A stretch of DNA of 64,000 nucleotides from Mobula hypostoma (Eukaryota). Position numbers and translations under genes: made by a program. Location of the stretch: assembly GCF_963921235.1 (NCBI RefSeq), contig NC_086108.1, positions 31,560,001 to 31,624,000 on the forward strand. The letters are read 5' to 3'. Shown one piece after another: positions 1 through 60,780 of this stretch. How positions within the stretch are numbered: the stretch's first letter is position 1; each line of letters begins with the position of its first letter. The notes under the pieces are model-generated. The model saw nothing but the letters and a program-made list of their open reading frames with translations. It was not told the DNA's origin and ran no database searches.

Positions 1-2480
1 TGACTTCAATCTACATATAGATTGGGTGAACCAAGTTGGTAAGGGTGCTGAGGAAGAGGATTTCTTGGAATGTATGCGGGATGGTTTCCTGAACCAACAT
101 GTCGAGGAACCAACTAGAGAGCAGGCCATTCTAGACTGGATATTGAGCAATGAGGAAGGGTTCATTAGCAATCTAGTCGTGAGAGGCCCCTTGGGTAAGA
201 GTGACCATAATATGGTGGAATTCATCATTAAGATGGAGAGTGACATAGTTAATTCCGAAACAAAGGTTCTGAACTTAAATAAGGGTAACTTTGAAGGTAT
301 GAGATGTGAATTAGCTAAGACAGATTGGCAAATGATACTTAAAGGGTTGATGGTGGATATGCAATGGCAAGCATTTAAAGATCGCATGGATGAACTGTAA
401 CAATTGTTCATCCCAGTCTGGCAAAAGAATAAACCAGGGAGGGTAGTGCACCCGTGTCTGACAAGGGAAATTAGGGATAGTATCAATTTCAAAGAAGAAA
501 CATACAATTTAGCCAGAAAAAGCGGCTCACCTGAGGACTGGGAGAAATTCAGAGGAGGACAAAGGGCTTAATTAGGAAAGGCAAAACGATTATGAGAGAA
601 AACTGGCAGGGAACATAAAAACTGACTGTAAAAGCTTTTATAGATATGTGAAAAGAAAAAGATTGGTTAAGTCAAATGTAGGTCCCTTACAGTCAGAAAC
701 AGGTGAATTGATCATGGGGAACAAGGACATGGCAGACCAATTGAATAACTACTTTGGTTCTGTCTTCACTAAGGAGGACATAATTAATCTTCTGGAAATA
801 GTAGGGGACCGAGGGTCTAGTGAGATGGAGGAAATGAGGGAAATACATGTTAGTAGGGAAGTGGTGTTAGGTAAATTGAAGGGATTAAAGGCAGATAAAT
901 CCCCAAGGCCAGATGGTCTGCATCTCAGAGTGCTTAAGGAAGTAGCCCAAGAAATAGTGGATGCATAAGTGATAATTTTTCAGAACTCTTTAGATTCTGG
1001 ACTAGTTCCTGAGGATTGGGGGGTGGCTAATGTAACCCCGCTTTTTAAAAAGGGAAGGAGAGAGAAACCAGGGGATTATAGACCAGTTAGCCTGACATCG
1101 GTGGTGGGGAAAATGCTGGAGTCAGTTATCAAAGATGTGATAATAGCACATTTGGAAAGCGATGAAATCATCGGACAAAGTCAGCATGGATTTGTGAAAG
1201 GAAGATCATGTCTGACGAATCTCATAGAATTTTTTGAGGATGTAACTCGTAGAGTGGATAGGGGAGAACCAGTGGATGTGGTATATTTGGATTTTCAAAA
1301 GGCTTTTGACAAGGTCCCACACAGGAGATTAGTGTGCAAACTTAAAGCACACGGTATTGGGGGTATGGTATTGATGTGGATAGAGAATTGTTCGGCAGAC
1401 AGGAAGCAAAGAGTGGGAATAAACGGGACCTTTTCAGAATGGCAGGCAGTGACTAGTGGGGTACTGCAAGGCTCAGTGCTGGGACCCCAGTTGTTTACAA
1501 TATATATTAATGACTTAGATGAGGGAGTTAAATGTAGCATCTCCAAGTTTGCGGATGACACAAAGCTGAGTGGCAGTGTTAGCTGTGAAGAGGATGCTAA
1601 GAGGATGCCGGGTTACTTGGATAGGTTAGGTGAGTGGGCAAATTCATGGCAGATGCAATTTAATGTGGATAAATGTGAAGTTATCCACTTTGGTGGCAAA
1701 AACAGGAAAACAGATTATTATCTGAATGGTGGCCGATTAGGAAAAGGGGAGGTGCAACGAGACCTGGGTGTCATTATACACCAGTCATTGAAAGTGGGCT
1801 TGCAGGTACAGCAGGCGGTGAAAAAGGCGAATGGTATGCTGGCATTCATAGCAAGAGGATTCGAGTACAGGAGCAGGGAGGTACTACTGCAGTTGTACAA
1901 GGCCTTGGTGAGACCACACCTGGAGTATTGTGTGCAGTTTTGGTCCCCTAATCTGAGGAAAGACATTCTTGCCATAGAGGGAGTACAAAGAAGGTTCACC
2001 AGATTGATTCCTGGGATGGCAGGACTTTCATACGATGAAAGACTGGATCGACTAGGCTTATACTCGCAGGAATTTAGAAGATTAAGGGGGGATCTTATTG
2101 AAACGTATAAAATCCTAAAGGGATTGGACAGGCTAGGTGCAGGAAGATTGTTCCCAATGTTGGGGAAGTCTGGAATTAGGGGTCACAGATTAAGGATAAA
2201 GGGGAAGCCTTTTAGGACCGAGATGAGAAAAAACTTCTTCACACAGAGAGTGGTGAATCTGTGGAATTCTCTGCCACAGGAAACAGTTGAGGCCAGTTCA
2301 TTGGCTATATTTAAGAGGGAGTTAGATATGGCCCTTGTGGCTAAAGGGATCAGGGGGTATGGAGGGAAGGCAGGTACAGGGTTCTGAGTTGGATGATCAG
2401 CCGTGATCATACTGAATGGCGGTGCAGGCTCGAAGGGCCGAACGGCCTACTCCTGCACCTATTTTCTATGTTTATATGTT
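1..2480 (+). mobile_element. CR1 (HER1-like) LINE, ORF2 endonuclease end and RT plus 3' UTR; disrupted, runs off the window start
   Basis: YLDFQKAFDKVPH, SGVxQGSVLGP, KFADDTK, VRPHLEYCVQFWSP; stops at 398 and 966; typical 3' tail. Confidence 0.95.
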
Positions 2481-9006: not shown

Positions 9007-9410
9007 TTAAAGCTTATATAATCCAAAGAAAGTTTTAGACTCATCAGAATCAACTAACTTGGGATATGACACATTAACATAAAGTGACTCTCCTTTGGAA
9101 AGAAATACTATTCCTGCTTGGTAACTACTTGTGGCCCAGTCCTTGTCATTCAATGAACAATAGCTTGTTTTCTTTGCTTCCATGAGAATCAAGTCTTTGT
9201 GATAGCGATCTGTTCGTTTGAACACGGTGTGCTCTAAGTTCTTGTCTAGTTCACATCTAAATGCTCGGAAATAGATCTTAGAATATATGAAGAAAAATCC
9301 GGTTTCATTGACGATGAGACCTCTGTCTTTATATAGGACACCCCGGGTAAAGGCATTGCCCAGATGATCATGCCACGTGAGTGGGTTGGAACCTTTATTT
9401 TTATAAGAGC
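9007..9410 (-). CDS. FASLG: FASLG exon 4 (TNF homology domain), 404 nt
   Basis: CAG acceptor at 9413-9411; LTW, GLIVNETG, IYSKIYFR, two Cys, TFFGLYKL then stop. Confidence 0.93.
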
Positions 9411-12400
9411 CTGGTGTAAAAACATTGCAAGTAAAGATTATTAATATACAATTCAAAATTAAACATAATGAATACTTATTACCTAGGAGTAACAAGAAGT
9501 ATTGGTCATTAGTGGTCAGGATAACACATCAAGTAAATGAATGCATTCCACTTTTGTCCAGTGCCAAAATACCCAGGCCAATTGAATATGAAAACCGCTA
9601 TAAATATAATATCATCAATGAATGTAAAGTACAATGGGAACTTTTCTATAATTTTAATGAAAGGAATACGGTTAAAACTGATGAACTGAGGTCTGAGCAA
9701 CAGACACAAAATGCTGGAGGAACTCAGCAGGCCAGGCAGCATCGATGGAAAGGATTACAGTCCTCAGGAAGGGTCTGAGGTCAGAGGTCACAATGACTCT
9801 TGAAGGACATGAGGCTTGGCTAGGCTCAAATAAACTCCCAGTTATGCCCAAGCTCATTGGAAGAGATGATATGAAGGTGGAAACTATTATTGTAATCATA
9901 GGGTCACCTAGTCACCAAATAACCACATAACCATATAACTATATAACAATTACACCACGGAAACAGGCCATCTCAGCCCTTCTAGTCCATGCCGAACTCT
10001 CACCTAGTCCCACCTGCCTGCACTCAGCCCATAACCCTCCATTCCTTTCCTGTCCATATAGCTGTTCAATTTAACTTTAAACGACAACATGGAACCTGCC
10101 TCAACCACTTCTGCTGGAAGTTTGTTCCACACAGCTACCACTCTCTGAGTAAAGAAGTTCCCCCTCATGTTACCCCTAAACTTTTGTCCTTTAATTCTCT
10201 ACTCATGTCCTCTTGTGTGAATCTCCCCCACTCTCAATGGAAAAAGCCTATCTACGTCAACTCTATCTATCCCCCTTATAATTTTAAATACCTCTATCAA
10301 GTCCCCCCTCAACCTTCTATGTTCCAAAGAATAAAGACCCAACTTGTTCAACCTTTCTCTGTAACTTAGGTGATGAAACCCAGGTAACATTCTAGTAAAT
10401 CTCCTCTGTACTGTCTCTATTTTGTTGACATCTTTCCTATAATTCGGTGACCAAAACTGTACACGATACTCCAAATTTGGCCTCACCAATGCCTTGTACA
10501 ATTTCAACATTACATCTCAACTCCTATACTCAATGCTCTGATTTATGAAGGCCAGCATACCAAAAGCTTTCTTCACCACCCTATCCACATGAGATTCCAC
10601 CTTCAGGGAACTATGCACCATTATTCCTAGATCCCTCTGTTCTACTACATTCTTCAATGCCCTACCATTTACCATGTATGTCCTATTTTGATTAGTCCTA
10701 CCAAAATGTAGCACCTCACATTTATCATCATTAAACTCCATCTGCCATCTTTCAGCCCACTCTTCTAACTGGCCTAAATCTCTCTGCAAGCTTTGAAAAT
10801 GTACTTCATTATCCACAACTCCACCTATCTTAGTATCATCTGCATACTTACTAATCCAATTTACCACCCCTTCATCCAGATCATTAATATATATGACAAG
10901 TAACATTGGACCCAGTACAGATCCCTGAGGCACACCACTAGTCACCGGCCTCCAATCTGACAAACAGTTATCCACTGCCACTCTCTGGCATCTCCCATCC
11001 AGCCACTGCTGTATCCATTTTACTTCTTCAATATTAATACCTAATGATTGAACCTTCCTAACCAGCGTTCCATGTGGGACCTTGTCAAAGGCCTTACTGA
11101 AGTCCATATAGACAACATCCACCACTTTACCCTTATCAACTTTCCTAGTAACCTCTTCAAAAAATTCAATAAGATTTGTCAAACATGACCTTCCACGACC
11201 AATATCGAAATATCAATCTACCACATCTCATGATGCTTAAGGTCATGTTGAGCTGCTTGCTGACAAGGCAGAGGTGGGAGGTAGGAGTTGAGAATGTGAC
11301 CTGTTCACTAAAATAACTTGGATCTCAACAAGCATAAAACACAAGCAAAGATGCTGCCTGACCTGCTTCCAACATTTTCTACTTCTATTTGCTTTGTATT
11401 TTAAATTTCACTGTATTACAGACCTGAAAGTAATTTCATGCCAAACTAATTGTTCATTCTCTTTAGTAATAAATGATTTCTGCTAGTATTACACTGAGCA
11501 GGTAAAAACACTGAGCTTGCAATAGGTCCTATACATACACAAGCCTTTCCTTTCTCTTAATCAGCAAGCATATATAAATTCTTATTTCTTTTAATTATCA
11601 AAAGACAATGTGTGCTTTAATCTATTTTTCGATGTACCTTAATGCTAAACAAATTCTTTCAGACTTTAGCTTATTTTTATTGGTTCCATTACCAGATTCA
11701 GTTACCAGGCATTTTGCCAACTTGTCTTACTAAATACGCTAGAGACAGCTAGTGGCAAGATTGTAGTACTGCAGCACATTTTGATATTTTTTATTACGAA
11801 GGCTGATATCAAAGTAGGAAGACATGCAAAAAGCCTAGCTGACCCATGCAATTTCTCCTGATATTTCCCTTCTTCCCTTAATCCCAGTATATATTATCTT
11901 ATATATTTCTCTCCTCAACCTGGCTCCATACCCTACTCTTCTAACTTGTTGCACATAACTATTCTTCCACCCACATTATGTGAAGTCTCAATGAATTAAT
12001 TTTTAAACTATGCCCCCCGGTGAATTGGATCAACATTATCCATTCCTATCATAAATTTGAGTATTTTATTACTTTTTTCCCAATGGTAGCAAATCTAAAA
12101 TCTTCAATCTTTCCTCCCAGGGTTCCTGAGATTAGTTGACTCCTAATATCTAATTCTGGACAAACTTGAAAGCAATACAATCTATTGTATGTTTCCTGGG
12201 TGAACATTGGTTAAATTTTTGGCTGCATGGCTTCATCTTATCAAATCTAAATGAAATTCTAATCAAAACGAATAACATTTAATAAAATTCATGTCAGTAA
12301 AATGGAAGGAATCCAAGATATTAGTTCTGTCTTCATTTTATAGATTTATTTTTGCCCTATCTATTTTGTGTTTTTTTCACTGAACTTCACCCCCCACTGC

Positions 12401-13463
12401 CCACACCCCTTCTCTGCATAGCTTTTGGATCACTGTTCTTGCTGGTCTCTCCATTACTTTCTGTTTCATTTTATGTCTCCCAATCCTCTTCAGTACTACC
12501 ATTCTAATATTGATTCCACGACAGTGCTCCCAAGAATTAATAATTCATCACTGACCTGTTAGATGTGCAGCTGCTTTGAGATTCCTGGGTGGTTCTGTCA
12601 CATTTTTAACTCCTATGGAAGGCACAAAGTTATGATCCCTTAGCAAGAAGAGGCAGACCTGCATCATGTGTCACATACTGAACAAATAAAGTACAACTTT
12701 GGATAGCCCTCTACTTTGTTGCAAAACAATTTGGTTGAATGAATCAACAATTTGAAATAGTGTTGATTTTATCCGAGTCATTTTCTACACTCTTATGTAA
12801 TTCAGATAGAGATCAATGTAAGAGTGATTCTTTTTCCTTTGCAAACTTCCTTTATAGTTAATACCATTTTAGTAATTGCCCCTTTTAACTTTATCTTCTT
12901 CATTTTGACTCTCTACACTCCTCCCCAGGACTCTGAATGATAACAGAATCCTTAGGTCTCTGCTGGGCCCCAAGAAGTACCAGATCATATTTGCAAGACT
13001 AGTAGATCAATGCAAGTGACATTTTGTATAATTATATTTAAACTAGCCCATGCTTACCAATAATTTTCTCTGCACGTGAACCCTTTGCTCTATTATCCTG
13101 ATTAAAAGAAAAGAGAAAAAAAATTAGCCTGCACATTCTCATCCAAGTTGCCTGCTTTAATCCCACATCACTCAGTTCCTCCACCATTCCCACCTCAACC
13201 TTTCATTTAGTTGCTTAGCAATGTACCTCTTTTATCTCTTTGATGTCCTTTTGGAGGTCAATTAAATAGACCGTCCCCAGTGCAACCCATGCCAGAGCTA
13301 GTAGAACCAAGTTCAGAATCAGAATGGAGCCCACTGTCTTGCAGTCACACTTTCTCCTCTTCTTCAATGTGGGCAGAGTCCAAACTGGTGGCTGCACATA
13401 GGGATTGAGATTCGGATTCCCATCCACCATGAACACTTGCGGATATGCATAGCTCTGTTGCAT
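9007..13463 (-). CDS. FASLG: Fas ligand (TNFSF6), 4 coding exons: join(13463-13227,13097-13058,12612-12556,9410-9007); 738 nt, 245 aa type II membrane protein
   Basis: N-terminus MQQSYAYPQVFMVDG, KKRRK then TM helix, AAHLTG strand A, TNF homology domain ending SKTFFGLYKL (the FASLG C-terminus). All introns GT-AG with phases 0,1,1; the spliced frame is open. Confidence 0.92.
9923..11198 (-). mobile_element. 5'-truncated CR1 LINE in FASLG intron 3
   Basis: RT ORFs 10517-11182 and 10199-10510 (DFSKAFDKVPH, YADD, VRPNLEY); tandem 8-mer tail. Confidence 0.93.
12556..12612 (-). CDS. FASLG: FASLG exon 3 (VKNVTEPPRNLKAAAHLT-G), 57 nt
   Basis: TAG acceptor, CAG|GTCAGT donor, encodes AAHLTG motif; phase 1 to 1. 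Confidence 0.9.
13058..13097 (-). CDS. FASLG: FASLG exon 2 (DNRAKGSRAEKII-G), 40 nt
   Basis: Strong polypyrimidine tract plus CAG acceptor; donor TTG|GTAAGC; phase 0 to 1. Confidence 0.88.
13227..13463 (-). CDS. FASLG: FASLG exon 1 (cytoplasmic tail and TM), 237 nt
   Basis: ATG at 13463; ends ...KEIKE with donor GAG|GTACAT, phase 0. Confidence 0.9.
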
Positions 13464-17995: not shown

Positions 17996-18105
17996 CATTT
18001 TTATCCCCCATCAGAATGGTGTCAAAGCTCTCCGTTTCTTGCTGCTGGTGAAGAACAGTGAATACTTGCCTGTGGCAAACAAAACAAAGAAAACTAGTAA
18101 ATACG

Positions 18106-33738: not shown

Positions 33739-36700
33739 ACCATAGAACCATAGAAACTACAGCACAGAAACAGGCCCTTTGGCCCTTCTTGGCTGTGCCG
33801 AACCATTTTCTGCCTAGTCCCACTGACCTGCACACGGACCATATCCCTCCATACACCTCCCATCCATGTATCTGTCCAATTTATTCTTAAATGTTAAAAA
33901 AGAACCCGCATTTACCACCTCGTCTGGCAGCTCATTCCATACTCCCACCGCTCTCTGTGTGAAGAAGCCCCCCCTAATGTTCCCTTTAAACTTTTCCCCC
34001 CTCACCCTTAACCCATGTCCTCTGGTTTTTTTTCCCCCCTTGCCTCAGTGGAAAAAGCCTGCTTGCATTCACTCTATCTATACCCATGATAATTTTATAT
34101 ACTATCAAATCTCTCCTCATTCTTCTACGCTCCAGGGAATGAAGTCCTAACCTATTCAACCTTTCTCTGTAGCTGAGTTTCTCAAGTCCCGGCAACATCC
34201 TTGTAAACCTTCTCTGCGCTTTTTCAACCTTATTTATATCCTTCCTGTAATTTGGTGACCAAAACTGAACACAATACTCCAGATTCGGCCTCACCAATGC
34301 CGACTTATAACAGTCCAGCTCTTATACTCAATACTTCGATTAATAAAGGCCAATGTACCAAAAGCTCTCTTTACGACCCTATCTACCTGTGACGACACTT
34401 TTAGGGAATTTTGTATCTGTATTCCCAGATCCCTCTGTTCCACTGCACTCCTCAGTGCCTTACCATTAACCCTGTATGTTCTACCTTGGTTTGTCCTTCC
34501 AACATGCAATACCTCACACTTGTCAGTATTAAACTCCATCTGCCATTTTTCAGCCCATTTTTCCAGCTGGTCCAAGTCCCTCTGCAGGCTCTGAAAACCT
34601 TCCTCACTGTCTACTACACCTCCAATCTTTGTATCGTCAGCAAACTTGCTGATCCAGTTTACCACATTATCATCCAGATCATTGATATAGATGACAAATA
34701 ACAATGGACCCAGCACTGATCTCTGTGGCACACCACTAGTCACAGGCCTCCACTCAGAGAAGCAATTCTCTACCACCACTCTCTGGCTTTTTCCATCGAG
34801 CCAATGTCTAATCCAATTTACCACCTCTCCATGTATACCTAGCGACTGAATTTTCCTAACTAACATCCCATGCGGGACCTTGTCAAAGGCCTTACTGAAG
34901 TCCATGTAGACAATATCCACTGCCTTCCCTTCATCCACTTTCCTGGTAACCTCCTCGAAAAACTCCAACAGATTGGTCAAACACGACCTACCACGCACAA
35001 AGCCATGTTGACTCTCCCTAATAAGCCCCTGTCTATCCAAATGCTTGTAGATTCTGTCTCTTAGTACTCCCTCCAATAACTTACCTACTACTGACGTTAA
35101 ACTCACCGGCCTATAATTTCCCGGATTACTTTTTGATCCTTTTTTAAACAACGGAACAACATGAGGCACTCTCCAATCCTCCAGCACTTCACCCGTAGAC
35201 AGAGACATTTTAAATATTTCAGCCAGGGCCCCCGCAATTTCAACACTAGTCTCCTTCAAGGTCCGAGGGAGCACTCTGTCAGGTCCCGGGGATTTATCCA
35301 CTTTTATTTTCCTCAAGACAGCAAGGACCTCCTCCTTTTCAATCTGTACAGTTTCTATGGTCTCACTACTTGATTCCCTCAATTCCATAGATTTCATGCC
35401 AACTTCCTTAGTAAATACAGACGCAAAAAACCTATTTAAGATCTCCCCCACTTCCTTTGGTTCCGCACAAAGCCGACCACTCTGATCTTCAAGAGGACCA
35501 ATTTTATCCTTTACAATCCTTTTGCTCTTAATATACTTGTAAAAGCTCTTTGGATTATCCTTCACTTTGACTGCCAAGGCAACCTCATGTCTTCTTTTTG
35601 CCCTCCTGATTTCTTTCTTAAGTATTTTCTTGCACTTCTTATACTCCTCAAGCACCTGATTTACCCCCTGTTTCCTATACATTTCATACAACTCCCTCTT
35701 CTTCTTTATCAGAGTTGCAATATCCCTTGAGAACCAAGGTTCCTTATTCCTATTCAATTTGCCTTTGATCCTGACAGGAACATACAACTCTGCACTCTCA
35801 AAATGTCCCCTTTGAAGGCTTCCCACCTACCAATCAGATCTTTGCCAGAGAACAACCTGTTCCAATCCATGCTTTTTAGATCCTTTCTCATTTCTTCAAA
35901 TTTCGCCTTCTTCCAGTTCAGAACCTCAACCCTAGGACCAGATCTATCCTTGTCCATGATCAAATTGAAACTAATGGTGTTGTGATCACTGGAACCAAGG
36001 TGCTCCCCTACACAGACTTCTGTCACTTGCCCTAATTCATTTCCTAACAGGAGATCCAATGTTGCATCCCCTCTAGTTGGTACCTCTATCGATTGATTTA
36101 GAAAACTTTCCTGAACACATTTTACAAACTCTAAACCAACTAGACCCCTAACAGTATGGGAGTCCCAATCAATGTATGGAAAATTAAAATCCCCTACCAC
36201 CACAACTTTATGTTTCCTGCAGTTGCCTGCTATCTCTCTGCAGATTTTCTCTTCCAAGTCTCGTTAACTATTGGGTGGTCTGTAATACAATCCCACTAAT
36301 GTGGCCATACCTTTCCTGTTTCTCAGCTCCACCCATAAGGACTCAGTAGTCAAGCCCTCTAATCTGTCCTGCCTGAGCACTGCTGTAATATTTTCCCTAT
36401 CAAGCAGTGCTACTCCCCCACCTTTCATTCCTCTGCCTCGATCACATCTGAAACATCGGAACCCTGGAATATTAAGCTGCCAGTCCTGCCCCTCCTGTAG
36501 CCAAGTTTCACTAATTGCTACAACATCATAATTCCACGTGTCAATCCACGCCCTCAACTCATCCGCCTTCCCCGCAATACTCCTAGCATTGAAATATATA
36601 TACCTCAGAAGATTTTTACCACCACTCACAACCTTTCCATCAGCGGATTTGCTTAAACTTTCCATATCATTTATTTTCACCCCAGCCACACTGTCAGCTC

Positions 36701-40806: not shown

Positions 40807-41816
40807 GCATGCATTTTGCTTTTTTACAGGAATACTTGCAGGTATTATGAATTTGATACTAAATATAACTTGTGAACTGTGCAATAAAAGCAAAATTAAA
40901 ACAATAGAAGTTACACCTTTAATGTCTTAACTCAACCAAAGAGCAACGATCAAGAACATTTCACAACTTCAGTTTGGCAAACACATTTGATACTCAGACT
41001 GTTTAATAATGCAAAGCACTGATTCAGTGCATGATGCTGATGCAAAAGTGGGGTCTGCTTCTGTTCTGTATGGGAAGCTATGAATGGCTGTAAGGAGAAG
41101 GGATTTTAAAGCAAACTCCATTGCCAAGGCAACAGGTGCTTCTATCTTCACTTGGAGATAATTAAGAGGCCTGACTGCCCTCAGTTAGGGAAGGTTCAAA
41201 TACACAACCTCCATTGCAATGTTAAATACTGGATGGAGTGAGAGAACAATTCTCATGTGGGAAACACTTAAAGGACAAATATTAGAGCTGGGAATATTCA
41301 GGGTTCCTCGAACAAAAGATGGTGAAAGTCTGGGATTCGATTCATTCTTCCCAAATCTGCTGAGGATTAAAATATCAAAACTGAAATTAATGAAAACTTA
41401 TTAGATTTGTGTACTAATGATATGAACACCTGTGGTACTGGCTTTAAATTTGATGACCATTTCTTTAGCTGACTGCTGGTAAAAAAAAAGAAACAACTGA
41501 ACACATTGTCCAGATACAGCCAGGAAGTATGAGGCGCTTAATGGCTACACACGTTTAAATTTTAATTCAGCTTAAAGGCAGAAGTGAATATTGAAAATAA
41601 GAGAAACACACTGAGGTTTATATTTCGATAAATGGATTACAAAAGCATTTCTCCTGTTTTCTAAATAATACATAGCTTGCAATGATTTTTGTAGTTTGCA
41701 AAGGAAATAATGATCTTGTGGTCAAAGCATTGTGAAACTTTTCAACTTCCTTGCTGTCGCAATGACTGCTAGGCCTTCACTACATGTCAAGGTCATATGC
41801 ACCTTGAAATCATGAT

Positions 41817-42214
41817 CTAAATCTTGTAGATTCCAAAGAAGGTCATAAGCTCATCAGCACTGACCATTGTTGGATCCGAGACTTGAACAAACAACTCAAC
41901 TCCTTCTCTCAGGTGAAATATTCCAGCCTGAAATGTGGTCTTCCCCCAAAATCCATGGCCACTGCAGAAGTTCATCTCTTGCACTCTCATCAGAGTCTGG
42001 TCGAGCTGGTAAGTGGCATCGTGTTTAAGAATGGTTTGGTGCAATGGCATCTGAGGGCATTTTATTCCTCGGAAGTAGATTTTTGAATAAATGTAGTATT
42101 TTCCAGTTTTATTGATGATCAGTGTTCCATTCCTGTATGCAAGCCCTTGTATAAAAGCATTGCCCATCTGAATCTCCCACATCAATCTATTGGAATGACC
42201 AGCCGTTGCCTTCC
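41817..42214 (-). CDS. FASLG-like paralog exon 4 (TNF homology domain), 398 nt
   Basis: CAG acceptor at 42217-42215; GKATAGHSNRLMW...TFFGIYKI then stop. Confidence 0.9.
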
Positions 42215-43521
42215 CTGTAATTGCATGTTGATGTTATTCTTGCATTTACATGCAATGAATCAAAAAAATTTGCATCAATATATGCCAGTCAATTTGCTCA
42301 AGTAAGCCAGAAGTATTGTCCATAATTCTAGGATAAGTATATTTTAATATATTAATTTCACTTTTCCTTTGTCATTTGACTAACATTAATAGCACAGAAA
42401 AAAAAACAACAATGTTATGCCAACAACAGGAATTCTGCAGATGCTGGAAATTCAAGCAACACACATCAAAGTTGCTGGTGAACACAGCAGGCCAGGCAGC
42501 ATCTCTAGGAAGAGGTACAGTCGACGTTTCAGGCCGAGACCCTTCATCAGGACTGTTGTGCCAATGTTTTAACCTGCTCCATGATCAATCTGATTCTTCC
42601 CTCCTACACAGCCTATAACCCTCCATTTTTCTTTCATTAATTTGCCTAAGAATCCTTTCAATGTCGCTAATGTATCATCTTCTACTACCGTCCCTGACAG
42701 TGCATTCCAGACACTTACTGCTCACTCTGTATCTAAGATCTATCTCTGACATCTCCTCTAAGTTTTTTTTCCATTCACCTCTGATATTAATCATTCCCAC
42801 CTGATTGTTTCTAATATTCTACTTCACCATTACTCCCCTTTCATTCTATTGTTTTAATTAACATTTAACTATTTTCTTTCACCTTATTCCCTAATTAATA
42901 TATTTCCCCCCACTTTTTCCCCAGCCTTTTCTCCTGGTCTCCAGTTTCCCAGTTCAATTATTTATAGAACGAACAGAATAACAACAAACCTGTAAGATGA
43001 GCGGCCCTTTTAATGTCACCCTCTGCCTCGCTCTTCTTTGCAGTTCCTACAAGACAGCAAACGTAGACCATAACAATCAGCTTCCTGCAAACCCATGAAT
43101 CTTCTTCAATGAATGAAAAAGACAATTACAAATTCGTAATTGAAAAAGAAGTTTGTACTTGCCAGTAAGCTTCTGTGGTGTGTTCTGCGGACTGCTGTTG
43201 ATCTACAAATATTACAAGAACTGAGAGTAAATAGATCTTCAATACACACACTTTAAATAAGCAAGACATGCACAGTTAAATTACCTGGTTCATTTGGGTT
43301 ACTTCTTGGTGCAGGTTGTGCAAGCTGTTTATGGTAAAAGCAAGTCCAGCCAGTGCCAATATGAGCATGACAGCGTTTACTGAAGCGCAGGCTGATATAC
43401 ACTTCATTTTCTTTTGAATTCTAGGTACTGGAAAGGGCAAGGGCCCTGCTGATGTCACCCTACTGGCAGCAAGGTCCTGACCTTCCCGCATTTCCAGAGA
43501 TTGGAGGTTCCTGTGCTCCAT
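41817..43521 (-). CDS. FASLG-like TNF superfamily paralog, 4 coding exons: join(43521-43285,43202-43163,43046-42990,42214-41817); 732 nt, 243 aa
   Basis: TM-bearing exon 1, AAHLTG exon 3, TNF domain with GNAF, YIYSKIYFRG, two Cys, FQAGIF, TFFGIYKI then stop. Exon sizes 237/40/57/398 versus 237/40/57/404 in FASLG. Open spliced frame. Confidence 0.88.
42424..42554 (-). mobile_element. Short Penelope pseudo-LTR fragment in intron 3 of the FASLG-like paralog
   Basis: Matches the terminus of the Penelope element at 18106-18240; flanked by near-direct repeat TGTTATGCCAA/TGTTGTGCCAA. Confidence 0.8.
42517..42556 (-). ncRNA. Minimal type I hammerhead ribozyme motif, Penelope-derived
   Basis: Minus strand ACAGUC-CUGAUGA-AGG(GUCUCGG)CCU-GAAAC-GUC^GACUGU: complete core, 6-bp stem I, 3-bp stem II, palindromic minimal stem III. 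Confidence 0.7.
42990..43046 (-). CDS. FASLG-like paralog exon 3 (TAKKSEAEGDIKRAAHLT-G), 57 nt
   Basis: TAG acceptor, CAG|GTTTGT donor, AAHLTG motif. Confidence 0.88.
43163..43202 (-). CDS. FASLG-like paralog exon 2 (INSSPQNTPQKLT-G), 40 nt, GC donor
   Basis: TAG acceptor; donor CTG|GCAAGT; same size and phase as FASLG exon 2. Confidence 0.75.
43285..43521 (-). CDS. FASLG-like paralog exon 1 (tail and TM), 237 nt
   Basis: ATG at 43521; hydrophobic VNAVMLILALAGLAFTI; donor CAG|GTAATT, phase 0. Confidence 0.85.
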
Positions 43522-44589
43522 GTCTGAAAGCGATCTGGCAAATAGAACAATGTGTAGCCCCCAGAGGCTTCCGTTCGTTCTGCTGGCGGGCAGGTTGCTC
43601 GCCTGTTATAAATTGTTGACCTGCGTTGTTTCCTTTATTTCTTGGTGTAAGTAGATGGGTATTTCAAAGCCAGAGACCGCATGGACCTTGCATGTTTTGA
43701 TGTAGACTTAGTTTCAAGTTAGCAACTCCACCCACCAATACAGGCCTTTGCACAAGGACCAAAGCATTAATCATAATAATATTTGTTATAGCCTTATGTA
43801 GGCAGTGACAAATTACTCAACATTTTTAATCCTTTTACTTGAATCATATAACTACTCCAGATGTAATGTTGTACACATCTGCAGACTGCTACCATCTTTC
43901 CTTTTAATATCCTTTTAAGCTGAAGAGCAATCAGCTTCTTGCTAAGAGAGGAAGTGAACACGTAGAGCTCTGTTTTGAGACCACAAGCAGTGAGGTTATG
44001 CAAGAGCAAATATGCAGTAAGCTTCAGTTAGGAGACTGAATGAAATACATCAAAGCTTAGTGAAGATGCAGAGCTCAAAATGGAGTGACTGCTTCATGCC
44101 CCCAACAAAACCCCCAAAACAAACACTCTGATCCATGTCCTGTAACAGGGAAAGGTTATCTGGTGGACAAATGTAAAGACTGGAAGCTGTGCTCTAAGAC
44201 TTCTTGAAATAAATTGAGGAATCCCTGCCCAGCAGAGAAGCATTCCGGATCATATTGAAGAGAGTGTCGGATCACTGGCCTTCAGCAGTCTGGGAGATGA
44301 TGTAGGAAGTGGCAATGTTGTAGTTGAACAAGACACTCCTGGAGTATTGTGCACAGTTTTATTACTCTGTTATAGGAGAGACATCGATAATGGAAAGAGT
44401 GCCGAGATTTATAAGGATACTGCCCGATGCTTGAGTGAGAGAGAGAGAGATTGGGCTGGCTAGGACTTTACTCCTTGGAAGGTAGGAGATTGAGTGGCTT
44501 CCTTATAGAGGCATATTAAATCACAAGGGGTATAGATAGTGTGAATGCACACAATTAATTATCAGGAATAAGTGATTGCCAAGGTATAT

Positions 44590-47500
44590 GGATCATATGG
44601 GACACAACAGGGTACGGGATGTCTGGAATCGGGTCCTGAATATTCTGAAGGGGGAGGGTGAGCAGCCAGTTGTCTTGGTACCTGTTGGTATCAATGACAC
44701 AGATAAGACAAAGGAGGAGGTCCTGAAGAGAGATTTCCAGGAGTTAGGAAGGAAGCTGAGAAGCAGGACCTCCAGGGTAGTAATCTCGGGATTGCTACCT
44801 GTGCCACGTGCTAGTGAGGGCAAGAATATTAGGATCAGGCAGATGAATGTGTGGCTGAGAGACTGGTGCTGGGGACAGGGCTTCAGATTCTTGGATAATT
44901 GGGATCTCTTCTGGGGGAAGTATGACCTGTTCGAAAAGGACGGGTTACACCTGAACCCGAAGGGGACCAATATCTTGGCAGGAAAGTTTAATAGAGCTGT
45001 CAGGGAGGGTTTAAACTAATTTGGCAGGGGGATGGGAACCGGAATGACAGAGCGGAGGAAGGGGAAAACAGAAATAAATCTAAGATAGTGAGCAGTAAAG
45101 ATGTCAGGAAAGACAGGCAGGCGATGGGGCAAATTTGTAGCCATTGGGATGAGTTGCAGTGCAATAAAGTTGTAGTGAAATCAAAGTGAAAAGTACCAAA
45201 TACTGGTCTTAAGGTGTTATACTTAAATGCACGCAGCATAAGGAATAAGGTGGATGATCTTGTCATACAGCTACAGATTGGCAGGTATGATATTGTGGCC
45301 ATCACTGAGACGTGGCTAAAGGATGCATGTCTCTGGGAGCTGAACATCCAAGGATACACGGTGTATCGGAAGGATAGGAAGGTAGGCAGAGGGGGAGGTG
45401 TGGCTTTATTGGTAAGAAATTACATTAAATCATTAGAAAGAGGTGATATAGGATCGGAAGGTGCAGAATCTTTATGGGTTGAGCTAAGAAATCGCAAGGG
45501 TGAAAGGACCCTGATGGCAGTTATCTATAGGCCTCCAAACAGCTGCAGGGATGTGAACTACAAATTACAACAGGAAATAGAAAAGGCTTGTCAGAAGGGC
45601 AGTGTTATGATAATTGTGGGGGATTTTAACATGCAAGCGGATTGGAAAAATCAGGTCGGCACTGGATCTCAAGAGAGAGAATTTGTAGAATGTCTGCGAG
45701 ATGGCTTTTTAGAACAGCTTGTTGTTGAGCCCACTAGGGGATTGGCTGTACTGGATTGGGTATTGTGTAATGAACCGGAGGTGATTAGAGAGATTGAGGT
45801 GAAGGAACCCTTAGGTGACAGTGATCATAACATGACTGAGTTCACTGTGAAATTTGAAAAAGAGAAGCCAAAATCTGATGTGTCGGTATTTCAGTGGAGT
45901 AATGGAAATTACAGTGGCATGAGAGAGGAACTGGCCAAAGTTGACTGGAAAGGGACACTGGCGGGAAAGACGGCAGAGCAGCAGTAGCTGGAGTTTATGC
46001 GAGAAGTGAGGAAGGTGCAAGACAGGTATATTCCAAAAAAGAAGAAATTTTCAAATGGAAAAAGGATGCAACCGTGGTTGACAAGAGAAGTCAAAGCCAA
46101 AGTTAAAGCAGAGGAGAGGGCATACAAGGAACCAAAAATTAGTGGGAAGACAGAGGATTGGGAAGTTTTTAAAACCTTACAAAAAGAGACTAAGAAGGTC
46201 ATTAAGAGGGAAAAGATTAACTACGAAAGGAAGCTAGCAAATAATATCAAAGAGGATACTACAAGCTTTTTCAAGTATATAAAGGGTAAAAGACACGTGA
46301 GAGTAGATATAGGACCGATAGAAAATGATGCTGGAGAAATTGTAATGGGAGATAAGGAGATGGCAGAGGAACTGAATGAGTATTTTGTATCAGTCTTCAC
46401 TGAGGAAGACATCAGCAGTATACCAGACACTCAAGGATGGCAGGGAAGAGAAGTGTGCACAGTCACAATTACGACAGAGAAAGTACTCAGGAAACTGAAT
46501 AGTCTAAAGGTAGATAAATCTCCCGGACCAGATGGAATGCACCCGTGTGTTCTGAAGGAAGTAGCTGTGGAGATTGCAGAGGCATTAGCGATAATCTTTC
46601 AAAAGTCGATAGATTCTGGCATGGTTCCAGAGGACTTGAAGATTGCAAATGTCACGCCGCTATTTAAGAAGGAGAGAAGGAAGCAAAAAGGAAATTATAG
46701 ACCTGTTAGCTTGACATCGGTTGTTGGGAAGTTGTTGGAGTCGATTATCAAGGATGAGGTTACAGAGTACCTGGAGGCATATGACAAGATAGGCAGAACT
46801 CAGCATGGATTCCTTAAAGGAAAATCCTGCCTGACAAATCTATTACAATTTTTTGAGGAAATTACCAGTAGGCTAGACAAGGGAGATGCAGTGGATGTTG
46901 TATATTTGGATTTTCAGAAGGCCTTTGACAAGGTGCCACACATGAGGCTACTTAACAAGATAAGAGCCCATGGAATTACGGGAAAGTTGCATATGTGGTT
47001 AGAGCATTGGCTGATTGGCAGGAAACAGAGAGTGGGAATAAAGGGATCCTACTCTGGTTGGCTGCCGGTTACCAGTGGTGTTCCACAGGGGTCTGTGTTG
47101 GAGCCGCTTCTTTTTACATTGTACATCAACGATTTGGATTATGGAATAGATGGCTTTGTGGCTAAGTTTGCTGATGATACAAAGGTAGGCGTAGGGGCTG
47201 GTATTGCTAAGGAAACTGAGAGTCTGCAGCGAGACTTGGATAGATTGGAAGAATGGGCAAAGAGGTGGCAAATGAAATACAATGTTGGAAAGTGTATGGT
47301 TATGCACTTTGGCAGAAGAAATAAACAGGCAGACTATTATTTAAATGGGGAAAGAATTCAAAGTTCTGAGATGCAACGGGACTTGGGAGTCCTCGTACAG
47401 GATACCCTTAAGGTTAATCTCCAGGTTGAGTCGGTAGTGAAGAAGGCGAATGCAATGTTGGCATTCATTTCTAAAGGAGTAGAGTATAGGAGCAGGGATG

Positions 47501-48100
47501 TGATGTTGAGGCTCTATAAGGCACTGGTGAGACCTCACTTGGAGTACTGTGGGCAGTTTTAGTCTCCCTATTTAAGAAAGGATGTGCTGACGTTGGAGAG
47601 GGTACAGAGAAGATTCAACAGAATGATTCTGGGAATGAGAGGGTTAACATATGAGGAATGTTTGTCCGCTCTTGGACTGTATTCCTTGGAGTTTAGAAGA
47701 ATGAGGGGAGACCTCATAGAAACGTTTCAAAAGTTGAAAAGCATGGACAGAGTAGATGTGACAAAGTTGTTTCCCATGATGGGGGAGTCTAGTACGAGAG
47801 GGCATGACTTAAGGATTGAAGGGCACCCATTCAGAACAGAGATATGAAGAAATTTTTTTAGCCAGAGGGTGGTGAATCTGTGGAATTTGTTGCCACGGGC
47901 GGCAGTGGAGGCCAAGTCATTGGGTGTATTTAAGGCAGAGATTGATAGGAATCCGAGTAACCAGGGCATCAAAGGTTATGGTGAGAAGGCGGGGGAGTGG
48001 GACTAAATGGGAGAATGGATCAGCTCATGATAAAATGTCGGAGCAGACTCGATGGGCCGAATGGCCGACTTCTGCTCCTTTGTCTTATGGTGTTATGGTC
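44590..48100 (+). mobile_element. Young CR1 LINE: ORF1 esterase C-terminus and ORF2 with three in-frame stops
   Basis: ORFs 45214-45987, 45997-47562 and 47584-47847 share one frame; complete endonuclease and RT motifs; 3' tail. Confidence 0.95.
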
Positions 48101-48719
48101 TAACATTAGACAAGGCAGGGATCTAATTCCAAAATGTAAATCTAACAACTTCTGGTACAGGAAATCCGAAAGAAAAACAGAAAATGCTGGAAACACTCAA
48201 CAGATAAGGCAGCATCATTGGGAAAAGAAAAGGATTTAATATTTCAAGGTAAAGACCCTTTATCAGAAACAGGTAGGCTCTATGAGTCTTGGACCTGAAA
48301 TACTAATTCGATCTTTGTTTTTACAGATTCTGCCTGACATTTCTATATTTTATATGTAAGGGATCTAAACTCAATAGCTTTGAGTTAATAGGAAAAGGAA
48401 TGTGTGATTAACCAATGTCTGTTGTGAGCATGGCAGCAGCATGGCCCATGGTCATCACACTACATTTAGACTGTTAGAGTGAGTTTTTGGGTAGGTGATT
48501 CATTTACACTTAAATGACTCTGTCCACCAGTCTTCTATTTGACTAAGTACTGTGGATTGAGCTCACAACAATGTATTTCCTAAAAGCTGTGAATTTCGGG
48601 ATACTAGCTAGATGCTGCAGATGGAAGTGTGAAGTTTACAAGTAGTTTCGAAGACAGTATTATCTATACTTTATAATATTAATTGTCCTCTATGTTAGCA
48701 CGTAAAATGCCAAATAAAC

Positions 48720-50081: not shown

Positions 50082-50273
50082 CTGCTTGAGGTTGTTAATG
50101 TCCTGTTGTAATTTGAAGATGTAAATTGTACTCCCAGCAAGCCAAGTCAGTGCTATAAAAACCAAAACTGGAATGAACTTGGTGGCAGCCCTTTCTATTT
50201 TTACTTTCTTCTCCGTCTCGTTTTGCGAATTCAGATGCTTAGGTGTTGCTCCATTGTTCAAAGACGTCATCAT
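50082..50273 (-). CDS. Orphan FASLG-type first exon (64 codons: tail, TM, stalk start); alternative first exon or relic of a third paralog
   Basis: MMTSLNNG...KFIPVLVFIALTWLAGSTIYIFKLQQDINNLKQ with donor CAG|GTATGT, phase 0. The last 28 aa align ungapped to FASLG exon 1 with 13 identities by manual count. Confidence 0.7.
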
Positions 50274-56255: not shown

Positions 56256-57215
56256 AATACTGGCTACTGTGAATACTTAGCAATGCCCTTCAGAATTTCC
56301 AGCAATCCAGCAATTTGCCAAGCCTTCGTCAATGAGATCCTCCAAGATATGCTACATAGGTATGTATTTGTCTATCTTGACAATATTCTCATCTTCTCCA
56401 AGGACTCTGAAGACCACAGCAGTCACGTCAGTCCAGTCCCTCAGGGTCTTCTCAGAAACCAGCTGTAGTGCATTAGGAAAATGCCAGTTCCATACCCAAG
56501 TCATTTCCTTCCTGGATTATGTCCTTTCACTCCAAGGCATAATCATGGACCCAGAGAAAGCACATTCCATCACTGAATGGTCCCCACTGTGTTCTCTCAA
56601 ACAGCTACAGCGCTTCTTGGGCCTCTCCAAATTCTACCGCCATTCCATCAGGAACTACAGCCAAATCACTGTTCCTCCTACTTCCCTCACCAAGTCACCT
56701 ACCTCACGGATAACCCGGACTGCTGTTGCAGACCACACTTTCGAGGAGCTCAAGGTAGGCATCATCACCATTCCCATTCTCAATCATCCAAACCCCTCTA
56801 GACATTCAGTGGTAGAGGTGGACACATCCGACGTGAACGCCAGGGCCACCCTCTCCCAGCAAGGACCGGCTGGGAAGACACACCCATGTGCTACCTTCTC
56901 ACGTGAAGTTCAGCTCTACACAGCACCATTATGGAGTAGGAGACAGGGAGCTACGTCATTAATGGGCCTTGGAGGAATAGAGGCATTGGCTTATATGAAA
57001 CACCAAGCCCTTCCTGATCTGGACTGACCACCACACGCTCATCACCATGCAACAGACCCACCAACTCTACCCCCGTCAGGTTTGCTGGGACCTCTTCTTC
57101 CAGCAATTCAACTTCACCATCTCCTACTGACCTGGCTCCAAGAACACTGAGGTGGACGCCCTGTCATGACAGTCGACGCAGCTGAAACGGAGACTGACCC
57201 TCAGCCCATCATTCC

Positions 57216-58859: not shown

Positions 58860-60780
58860 GACTGGTGTCAGTTAGCAAGAACAGTTTCAATCGAGAGGTT
58901 TAAGCACCTGGGAATAAACCTGGGAAAATTATTTTTCTCTAGTTTTATTTCAATTGTTTCCTCCACCAGGCAGTCCCAAAAGCCATTAGAATGGCACAGT
59001 AGTTTTCTGCCATCGAAGTCAATCCTATGGCCATCACGTTTGCAATGTTCTGCTACAACCGATTTTCCCGGGTAACCCAAACAGATACACCTCTTATGCT
59101 CCTTGATGCAGGTTTCTACCATGCGCCCTACCTGGCTGATATATGCTACTCCACATTCACAAGAATTCCTGTAAGTGCCATGCATCCTGAGCCCCAGGTC
59201 ATCTTTGACCCGACAAGTCCCAATTTCAGCTTCCTTGTGAGTTTGTGGATAACATTAATCCGGTATTTCTTCAGGATCCAGGCGATCCTTCCAGGAACCA
59301 GGGAAATATAGGGAAGACAGGGCGAGCGACCGGTTCCTCCTCATTGCTAAGTTTCCTGGTATTTTTCTGTCGGCCCTTTTAAGGGCCTGATTGATCTCCT
59401 TCACCTTGTAGCTATTCTGTAAGAATGTCGTGCACAAGGACCACTTGGTGAAGGAAGCCTTTGAAAAAGAAACTAGAGAAAAAGAATTTCACCCAAGACA
59501 AAGATCTCACTCTGTCATGGTCCTGATCAGTTATTCCCTGGGTCCCTTTAAATTTACTTTTTGTCCACTCAGGACCATTGACTCCTTGTTTTCCTTAATT
59601 CATTGTTTCCTTGTGTTTCTTGGGCTCTGTAATTAAAGGCACTTGAGTCTCAGCTGAACGAGCAGTATTTAGTGTCGGGTTCACAGCTCCTCGGTGCTAG
59701 ATCGTCATCGGATGTCACCGAAGCAAGTGCGAGAAAGTCACCCTGCCGGAACGAGCCAAATTACTTTGCCGGAGCTACTCAAGTCTTCTCCCCGAAGAGA
59801 GTGCCAGTAAGTCGCCCCTCCTCACTGGAGCCAGCCTGTTAAGTTACCGCACCTGATCGAGCCGCTAAGCTACCTTGCCGGGGCAGGTCCGTCAGGTTAA
59901 CCCACCGGAGTGAGACTAGAGCTGCTGTCTGTAGTTTCTGGGCCATGTCAAGGACTTGCCACTACTTGGAGCCATTTCGTGTCAAGGTATGAACTGTCTA
60001 TCGTTGTTTGGTACCATCTCTTCGTGTCCTCGTCTCTGCTGGGTAGGTCCGGCCGTATGCCGCTACCTTGAGCGAGGAACTGTCTCTTCGTGTTCTCGTC
60101 TCCACTGAGTAGGTCCAGCCGTTTGCCGCTACTCTGTCTCTCAGTTTTCTGCGTCCTGTGTCTAAAAGAAGAGTCCTGGCTCTATGTCCTGTACCCACGG
60201 AGAAGTCCTGGCTCAGTGTTCTGTGTCCTGTGTCTAAGAAAGATCCAGGCTTCGATGTTCCAAGTTCCAAGTCCAGGTTTCAGATGTTCCGAGTTCCAAG
60301 TCCAGCTCTGGTGTTCCGAGTTCCAAGTCTGGATCCCGAGTTCCATGTTCCGAGTTCCAAGTCCGGATCCTGAGTTCCATGTTTGGAGTTCCAAACCCAA
60401 GTCTGAGTCTAGCCACGCTTATTCCAGCTTCTGTTTTGCTCACTCCTTGATCTCCCTCTGAACAATCCTTGCTTCCCTGCTTCCCTGGTAACGATTAATA
60501 AGTTCTATTCTTGTTAACGCTACAAGAAGTGTTTGTGTCCTGCTTTTGGGTCCACCCGTGCTCCTCTCTTGTTACACACTCTAAGAACTGGAATTTGTAA
60601 ACAAAGTGGAAGCGCAGACACCTGATTGAATGAAAACTAACCAATCAGGAAGGACGGATGACAGCGGTATGTATACCACCAGTTCTAGACATGCCTAGGC
60701 ATAATCCCTCATGAAGAAGGCAGAGCTTGCATCAAACATCAGTTAAAATCAATACCTAGAAGCCCGAGAAAAGTTTACTC
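58860..60780. mobile_element. Penelope-like GIY-YIG fragment (minus 58868-59435) plus inverted 3' end (plus), split by a solo LTR
   Basis: GTYRNSCECGVAYISQ..IKEHKR..SVVAEHC; decayed hammerhead-like tail near 60705-60745. Confidence 0.7.
59513..60576 (+). mobile_element. Solo LTR (1064 bp) with internal tandem repeats
   Basis: TGT...ACA termini, 5-bp TSD CACTC; GTTCCGAGTTCCAAGTCC-type array at about 60250-60400. Confidence 0.85.

What the first reader, a model, noticed from the sequence alone, without database searches (positions are those of the whole stretch)
41817..43521. Intact, anciently diverged tandem Fas-ligand paralog
Seen: a second complete TNFSF gene 28 kb upstream of FASLG on the same strand. 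It has the same intron phases and exon sizes 237/40/57/398 versus 237/40/57/404, yet the TNF domains are only roughly 40-45% identical by manual alignment. Known: mammals have a single FASLG. Inference: an old, retained duplicate, possibly a cartilaginous-fish-specific second death ligand or a lineage lost in bony vertebrates.
Basis: partly seen in the sequence, partly recalled or inferred. Interest (0 to 1): 0.72.

Follow-up and report, generated by a model that had tools for sequence, protein, structure and literature searches.

The report
Ray's second Fas-ligand gene, two starts
This is one of the extra copies of the cell-killing signal gene Fas ligand that sharks and rays are already known to carry side by side; the only less familiar detail is that in several rays it can start from either of two first exons, each giving the protein a different membrane anchor.

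Summary
Observation confirmed. An intact four-exon TNF-family gene (237/40/57/398 nt, 243 aa) ends 28,353 nt upstream of a 237/40/57/404 nt Fas-ligand gene on the same strand; TNF domains are 41-44% identical. It is not new. It is the chondrichthyan paralog that RefSeq names 'Fas ligand member b' in whale shark. Marin 2020 and 2025 list tandems of 3-4 TNFSF6 genes in elephant shark, whale shark and skate, including this orthologue. Trees put it in a shark+ray b clade (100/100) within FASL, apart from LIGHT. Whether the duplication predates bony fish is unresolved (AU p 0.36, 0.22). Contigs of 4 of 4 runs skip introns 2 (GC-AG) and 3. It is modelled in RefSeq in five rays, and contig lengths in 3 of 4 runs fit its use. 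Likely a trimeric FAS/DcR3 ligand lacking FASL-a's N-terminal tyrosines; binding untested.

The parts
43285..43521 (-). FASL-b proximal first coding exon (237 nt, 79 aa): tyrosine-free cytoplasmic tail, membrane anchor at about residues 44-62, start of stalk
   Evidence: contigs cover 43285 to 43572-43590 in 4 of 4 runs
43163..43202 (-). FASL-b exon 2 (40 nt), followed by a GC-AG intron of 116 nt
   Evidence: donor GCAAGT; joint skipping 116 nt in 4 of 4 runs
42990..43046 (-). FASL-b exon 3 (57 nt), ends with the AAHLT start of the TNF domain
   Evidence: joint skipping 775 nt in 4 of 4 runs
41817..42214 (-). FASL-b exon 4 (398 nt): TNF homology domain and stop
   Evidence: Pfam TNF E 5.8e-29; best PDB sequence and fold matches are human FASL
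50082..50273 (-). Distal alternative first coding exon of FASL-b (192 nt, 64 aa, GT donor, phase 0): different short tail and membrane anchor, 6,879-nt intron to exon 2
   Evidence: joined to exons 2-4 it equals RefSeq isoform X2 P0043; X2 modelled in five rays; contig lengths in 3 of 4 runs fit a fork at exon 2
   Evidence: (contigs cover 41600-42213 and run about 800 letters past the laid stretch in X1)
9007..13463 (-). Neighbouring FASL-a gene (exons 13463-13227, 13097-13058, 12612-12556, 9410-9007; 245 aa) with the YPQVFMVD N-terminal motif
44570..48130 (.). High-copy reverse-transcriptase-type (LINE-like) repeats inside the long intron after the distal first exon
   Evidence: ORFs 45190-47562; very high contig depth; the LINE label is recalled, not tested against a library

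Best explanation
The gene is the ray orthologue of chondrichthyan Fas ligand b, one of three tandem FASL paralogs (order c - a - b - SUCO in whale shark) that arose before sharks and rays split, most likely within cartilaginous fish. SHOWN: intact frame, splicing, TNF fold, b-clade membership, two phase-0 first exons that each supply a cytoplasmic tail and membrane anchor. INFERRED (from how mammalian FASL works): the protein is a type II membrane ligand whose TNF domains trimerise, can be shed at the stalk, and bind the ray FAS receptor and the decoy DcR3, triggering FADD/caspase-8 apoptosis (about 0.55-0.6 that FAS is a receptor). INFERRED, weaker: the paralogs differ mainly in control. FASL-a keeps N-terminal tyrosines like those that sort human FASL to secretory lysosomes; both FASL-b tails lack them, so b would reach the surface without storage. 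Two promoters would let different cells or states choose which tail and anchor carry the same ligand domain.
For: b clade 100/100 and 100/99, FASL clade 100/98 and 94/90, LIGHT separate with this ray's own LIGHT. Closer to b orthologues of other species (55-100%) than to the neighbour (44%). PDB: FASL 103 bits versus LIGHT 72; fold model pLDDT 82.9, top three Foldseek hits human FASL, TM 0.87-0.91. In 8 b rows: both disulphide cysteines and F275 in 8 of 8, P206 in 7 of 8, Y218 in 7 of 8 (human numbering and roles of Y218/F275 recalled, P206 from a passage of PMC7214685). Tyrosines in the first 25 residues: 3-4 in 4 of 4 a rows; 0 in 5 of 7 and 1 in 2 of 7 b rows; 0 in both distal tails examined. 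Sorting role of Y7/Y9/Y13: passages of PMC2647539. Distal exon is as conserved as the proximal one against four other rays: 97/84/84/62% versus 95/78/77/59%. Published tandems.
Against: No binding or killing data. b is more diverged from primate FASL (37%) than a is (49%), equal to its identity with this ray's LIGHT (37%); it evolves faster than a and has lost basic residues around Y218. Holding b with LIGHT was rejected under LG+G4 (p 0.020) but not under the mixture model on 47 rows (p 0.065). The chondrichthyan FASL clade has only 93/88 and 83/77 support, and trees with b outside a+bony FASL are not rejected (p 0.36, 0.22). Neither a nor b has a long polyproline tract (6, 4 and 1 prolines) and mouse FASL lacks Y9 and Y13, so the sorting inference is loose. 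The distal-exon joint is not among the 15 joints shown (316 hidden) and the runs' RNA status is the tool's guess.
Confidence: 0.62

Rival explanations
1. FASL-b has shifted receptor preference: it binds mainly DcR3, HVEM, LTBR or another chondrichthyan TNF receptor and acts as a co-stimulatory or modulating ligand, not a death ligand.
For: Long stem branch (0.40-0.44); 37% identity to both primate FASL and ray LIGHT; changed residues at 214-221, 228 and 272. FASL, LIGHT and TL1A share DcR3 in mammals (passage of PMC11762692).
Against: Keeps P206, Y218 and F275 equivalents; best sequence and fold matches are FASL.
Confidence: 0.25
2. The a/b(/c) split predates the last common ancestor of jawed vertebrates, and b was lost in bony vertebrates. 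This concerns timing and is compatible with either function.
For: AU tests do not reject a+Callorhinchus+bony FASL (p 0.36) or b alone outside the other FASL (p 0.22); bony FASL clade weak (80/30, 80/78). A b-like gene seems present in Callorhinchus by eye, so the split is very old.
Against: Both best trees group a, b and c together apart from bony FASL; Marin 2025 reads it as a chondrichthyan expansion; single TNFSF6 listed in all 14 bony-vertebrate rows of the synteny table.
Confidence: 0.25
3. The distal exon is the leftover first exon of a lost tandem FASL gene that is spliced onto FASL-b exon 2 without a distinct job; the two isoforms are functionally equivalent.
For: It scores about equally against a, b and c first exons (75, 89, 77) and only 49 against its own proximal exon, so it is old and not a recent copy; no third TNF domain in the window; skate carries two b-like domains.
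Against: Frame, anchor and identity are kept across sawfish, stingrays and devil rays at the level of the proximal exon. A remnant origin does not exclude a present function.
Confidence: 0.3
4. FASL-b works mostly in mixed trimers with FASL-a or FASL-c, as lymphotoxin alpha and beta do.
For: Tandem paralogs with core residues conserved (alignment A2); analogy recalled.
Against: No co-expression or interaction data; nothing in the sequence requires it.
Confidence: 0.08

Closest known systems
Chondrichthyan 'Fas ligand member b' (whale shark NP_001409416.1 / XM_048602273.1; TNFSF6 orthogroup of Marin 2020, 2025)
   Same: Same clade (100/100); same position upstream of FASL-a (whale shark order c - a - b - SUCO; letters assigned by matching sequences by eye). 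The window's spliced proteins equal RefSeq models P0030 (b X1), P0043 (b X2) and P0035 (a), labelled Mobula hypostoma.
   Different: Ray copies carry a second, distal first exon; none was found for sharks (4 hits among 14 candidates, all rays; a weak search).
Mammalian FASLG / TNFSF6 (PDB 4MSV, 5L19, 5L36)
   Same: Type II layout, TNF jelly-roll fold (TM 0.87-0.91), disulphide, P206/Y218/F275 equivalents.
   Different: 37% domain identity; no N-terminal tyrosines, no long proline-rich domain; glycosylation sites at the 250 and 260 equivalents absent; single gene in mammals.
TNFSF14 / LIGHT
   Same: Sister family; same fold (Foldseek rank 4); 37% identity to this ray's LIGHT.
   Different: Separate clade (99/95, 98/89); the ray's LIGHT lies on another record (31.4 Mb versus 118.1 Mb); lower PDB score (72 versus 103 bits).

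Membership tests
TNF ligand superfamily | C-terminal TNF homology domain | tested here: met
   Pfam PF00229 101.1 bits, cut-off 23; predicted all-beta fold matches TNF ligands
TNF ligand superfamily | Type II membrane topology: one N-terminal hydrophobic anchor, basic residues before it | tested here: met
   Best 19-residue hydropathy window 44-62 (2.18) in X1 and 34-52 (1.99) in X2; a simple scan, not a topology predictor
TNF ligand superfamily | Forms trimers | not tested
   No complex prediction run; it would pass by likeness to solved trimers
FASLG / TNFSF6 orthogroup | Groups with FASL, not LIGHT, in trees | tested here: met
   FASL clade 100/98, 94/90; b+LIGHT p-AU 0.020 but 0.065 under the mixture model
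FASLG / TNFSF6 orthogroup | Synteny with SUCO, TADA1, PRDX6 | tested here: inconclusive
   No genome held, flanking genes not found in the window; tandem with FASL-a is seen, and the orthologue lies next to SUCO in whale shark
FASLG / TNFSF6 orthogroup | Binds FAS and triggers apoptosis | not testable with these tools
   Contact residues partly kept; no ray FAS sequence was in hand
Mammalian-type FASL | Cytoplasmic proline-rich domain and N-terminal tyrosines | tested here: not met
   0 tyrosines and 4 or 1 prolines in the two b tails; FASL-a has 3 tyrosines and 6 prolines, also no long tract
Chondrichthyan FASL-b | Member of the clade holding whale-shark 'Fas ligand member b' | tested here: met
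   100/100 with 11 rows; 100/99 with 9 rows
TNFSF14 / LIGHT | Groups with LIGHT orthologues | tested here: not met
   this ray's LIGHT is a different protein, P0064

The most novel reading that the evidence does not exclude
In rays, one FASL paralog has captured the first exon of another, ancient FASL gene, so a single ligand domain is delivered with either of two unrelated cytoplasmic tails and membrane anchors from two promoters. This would be a natural switch of trafficking, shedding or reverse signalling for a death ligand, kept since sawfish and stingrays split. The isoform is in automatic RefSeq models; four paper searches listed no paper on it, but Redmond et al. 2022 could not be read.
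Probability: 0.3. Interest if true: 0.5.

Novelty: already known. Interest (0 to 1): 0.24.

Why it matters
What stays open is functional. My searches listed no paper showing which receptor shark or ray FASL-b binds, or whether it kills. The two-anchor arrangement in rays offers a clean natural experiment: the same TNF domain with two different tails tests how far the cytoplasmic tail sets storage, surface display and shedding of a death ligand in an early jawed-vertebrate lineage.

Tried and rejected
Whole genome: none held, so synteny beyond the window and paralog c could not be read directly. A third TNF domain belonging to the 50.2-kb exon: none by tblastn or profile search, so 'separate third gene in the window' was rejected in favour of an alternative first exon. 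Pseudogene: rejected (open frame, splicing, conservation). LIGHT/TNFSF14: not favoured, with the caveat. Redmond et al. 2022 (J Immunol; seen only as reference 13 and as described in Marin 2025) is not held, so its treatment of FASL copies and expression is unseen. Paper searches: one search found 0 papers; searches listed nothing further on shark FASL paralogs, alternative first exons or FAS receptor duplicates (listings only). The Newick tree in Marin 2025's supplement was cut. The look-up of sequencing runs: no RNA holder on record, all 8 rows 'RNA?'; 4 of 8 were laid. Contig depths were not used to rank isoforms. Promoter motif scan of 400 nt before each start: scattered short hits, no control, not used. 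No complex prediction was run. Earlier scan findings: nothing by words or by sequence. Tree rows: 65 of about 200 proteins held were chosen by hand; 18 long, redundant or distant rows were dropped for the second tree. Row labels: shark and ray names, Latimeria, Geotrypetes and four LIGHT rows come; bichir, gar, sturgeon, hagfish and skate were matched by eye to Marin's supplement; primate, rodent, bird, crocodilian, frog and teleost labels are my recall.

Full report
Observation. On the minus strand, exons 43521-43285, 43202-43163, 43046-42990 and 42214-41817 (237/40/57/398 nt) give an open 243-residue frame. A second gene at 13463-9007 (237/40/57/404 nt) gives 245 residues with the same phases 0/1/1. 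The genes are 28,353 nt apart. Both last exons are Pfam TNF domains. Domain identity is 41% (tblastn) to 44% (137 aligned residues). Intron 2 of the upstream gene needs a GC donor to keep frame.

What it is. Both domains hit human FASL first among solved structures: 103 bits for the upstream gene against 72 for LIGHT, and 124 against 77 for the neighbour. A predicted model (pLDDT 82.9) matches human FASL chains at ranks 1-3. A homologue search returned 7 proteins of 70 candidates, all named TNFSF6-like, from Mobula, Hemitrygon, Pristis, Heterodontus, Heptranchias and Stegostoma, at 55-100% identity. That is well above the identity to its own neighbour, so the duplication is older than the shark-ray split. 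The whale-shark member of this set is named 'Fas ligand member b' (NP_001409416.1); orthologues of the neighbour are 'Fas ligand member a'. The window's spliced proteins are identical to RefSeq models labelled Mobula hypostoma. A third paralog, c, is recorded for that species on a record of the same length as b but lies outside the window.

Trees. On 140 domain columns, 65 hand-picked rows under LG+G4 gave b 100/100, a 99/98, c 100/98, all FASL 100/98 and LIGHT 99/95, the last holding this ray's own LIGHT. With 18 rows dropped and a mixture model, b was 100/99, FASL 94/90 and LIGHT 98/89. Forcing b with LIGHT was rejected in the first set (p 0.020) and borderline in the second (p 0.065). Both best trees join a, b and c apart from bony-vertebrate FASL, but weakly (93/88, 83/77). 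Trees with b outside are not rejected (p 0.36; p 0.22). So a chondrichthyan duplication is favoured, and an older split with loss in bony fish remains possible.

Already described. Marin 2020 (PMC7674686; passages and supplement rows seen) states that multiple TNFSF6 genes occur in sharks, four in tandem in Callorhinchus. Its supplement gives the whale-shark order of three TNFSF6 genes before SUCO, the last being the b sequence by eye. Marin 2025 (PMC11762692; abstract, passages, first part of section 3.2, section 3.4 and supplement parts seen) lists TNFSF6 x4 in Callorhinchus, x3 in Rhincodon and x4 in Leucoraja. It includes the whale-shark b domain and two skate b-like domains in its alignment and calls this a chondrichthyan expansion. 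Redmond et al. 2022 could not be read. Two reviews (PMC6795676, PMC6001812; passages) add nothing on paralogs.

Expression. Eight runs of two studies hold the stretch; the tool only guesses they are RNA. In 4 of 4 runs laid, contigs skip the 775-nt intron 3 and the 116-nt GC-AG intron 2. Run X2 has one contig running from exon 4 to the proximal exon 1 with the expected 98 letters between. Two bins of unique sequence upstream of the proximal exon (43679-44272) have depth under 1, as expected for RNA.

A 192-nt exon at 50273-50082 encodes a 64-residue tail, membrane anchor and stalk, and ends in phase 0 at a GT donor. Joined to exons 2-4 it equals RefSeq isoform X2. Such X2 models exist for five rays: two Mobula, Hypanus, Hemitrygon and Pristis. 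No shark form appeared (4 hits of 14 candidates; weak), and the one full skate b protein seen has the proximal type. In runs X1, X4 and X6 the main contig stops 101 letters beyond position 42213, and two contigs covering the two first exons each carry 27 unlaid letters. These are exactly the numbers expected if both exons fork into exon 2, since they share their last three bases (k=31 assumed). The joint itself was not displayed, so this is inference from lengths. X2 showed only the proximal exon. Against four other rays the distal exon is 97/84/84/62% identical and the proximal 95/78/77/59%. It resembles first exons of a, b and c about equally and its own proximal exon poorly, so it is old; its origin is unresolved.

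How it most likely works. By established TNF-family biology, the protein is a type II membrane ligand whose domains trimerise and cluster a receptor. In 8 b rows the disulphide and F275 are kept in 8, and P206 and Y218 in 7 (P206 cited as critical in a passage of PMC7214685; the others recalled). This favours FAS and DcR3 as partners, but b has diverged more than a (37% versus 49% to primate FASL) and has lost basic residues near Y218, so a shifted preference is a real rival. Human FASL is sorted to secretory lysosomes through its proline-rich domain and tyrosines 7, 9 and 13 (passages of PMC2647539). FASL-a keeps 3-4 tyrosines in its first 25 residues (4 of 4 rows); b has 0-1 (7 of 7 rows) and the two distal tails examined have none. 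I infer that a is the stored, triggered form and b a directly displayed form under two promoters. This step is weak: no ray paralog has a long proline tract and mouse FASL lacks two of the tyrosines.

Verdict. The feature is real, intact and spliced, and already known as FASL-b of the chondrichthyan TNFSF6 tandem. The alternative membrane-anchor exon is present in automatic annotation but was not found in print (listings only, open-access library), and is the one lead worth a follow-up. Interest 0.24.

Noticed in passing
window 18011-18069 (-): The tail of RefSeq isoform X3 of FASL-b (P0029, 130 aa) maps here, about 25 kb downstream of exon 3, behind an AG acceptor. It would give an anchored protein with no TNF domain. 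Seen in one species' model only; may be noise.
   Followed up: partly
window 43047-43162 (-): GC-AG intron in FASL-b where FASL-a has GT-AG; its removal is supported in 4 of 4 runs. Not checked in other species.
   Followed up: partly
window 50314-50270 (-): An upstream out-of-frame ATG 41 nt before the distal start codon opens a short frame whose stop overlaps the main ATG (leader; read by eye). It could dampen translation of the distal isoform.
   Followed up: no
window 13464-41816, and elsewhere in the window: The 28-kb gap and much of the window hold decayed reverse-transcriptase-type repeats, e.g. ORFs 969-2387, 34291-35826, 45988-47562 (LINE-like) and 56281-57027 (LTR-like) (labels recalled).
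   Followed up: no
P0053 (Scyliorhinus canicula): A catshark c-type FASL domain with an N-terminus unlike other c proteins and lacking the tyrosine motif; first-exon turnover may recur in this tandem.
   Followed up: no
PMC11762692 supplement S1: Little skate has two similar b-type domains, so b itself duplicated again in skates.
   Followed up: no
window 60244-60394: Degenerate tandem repeat with periods 7, 27 and 34 (best score 138).
   Followed up: no
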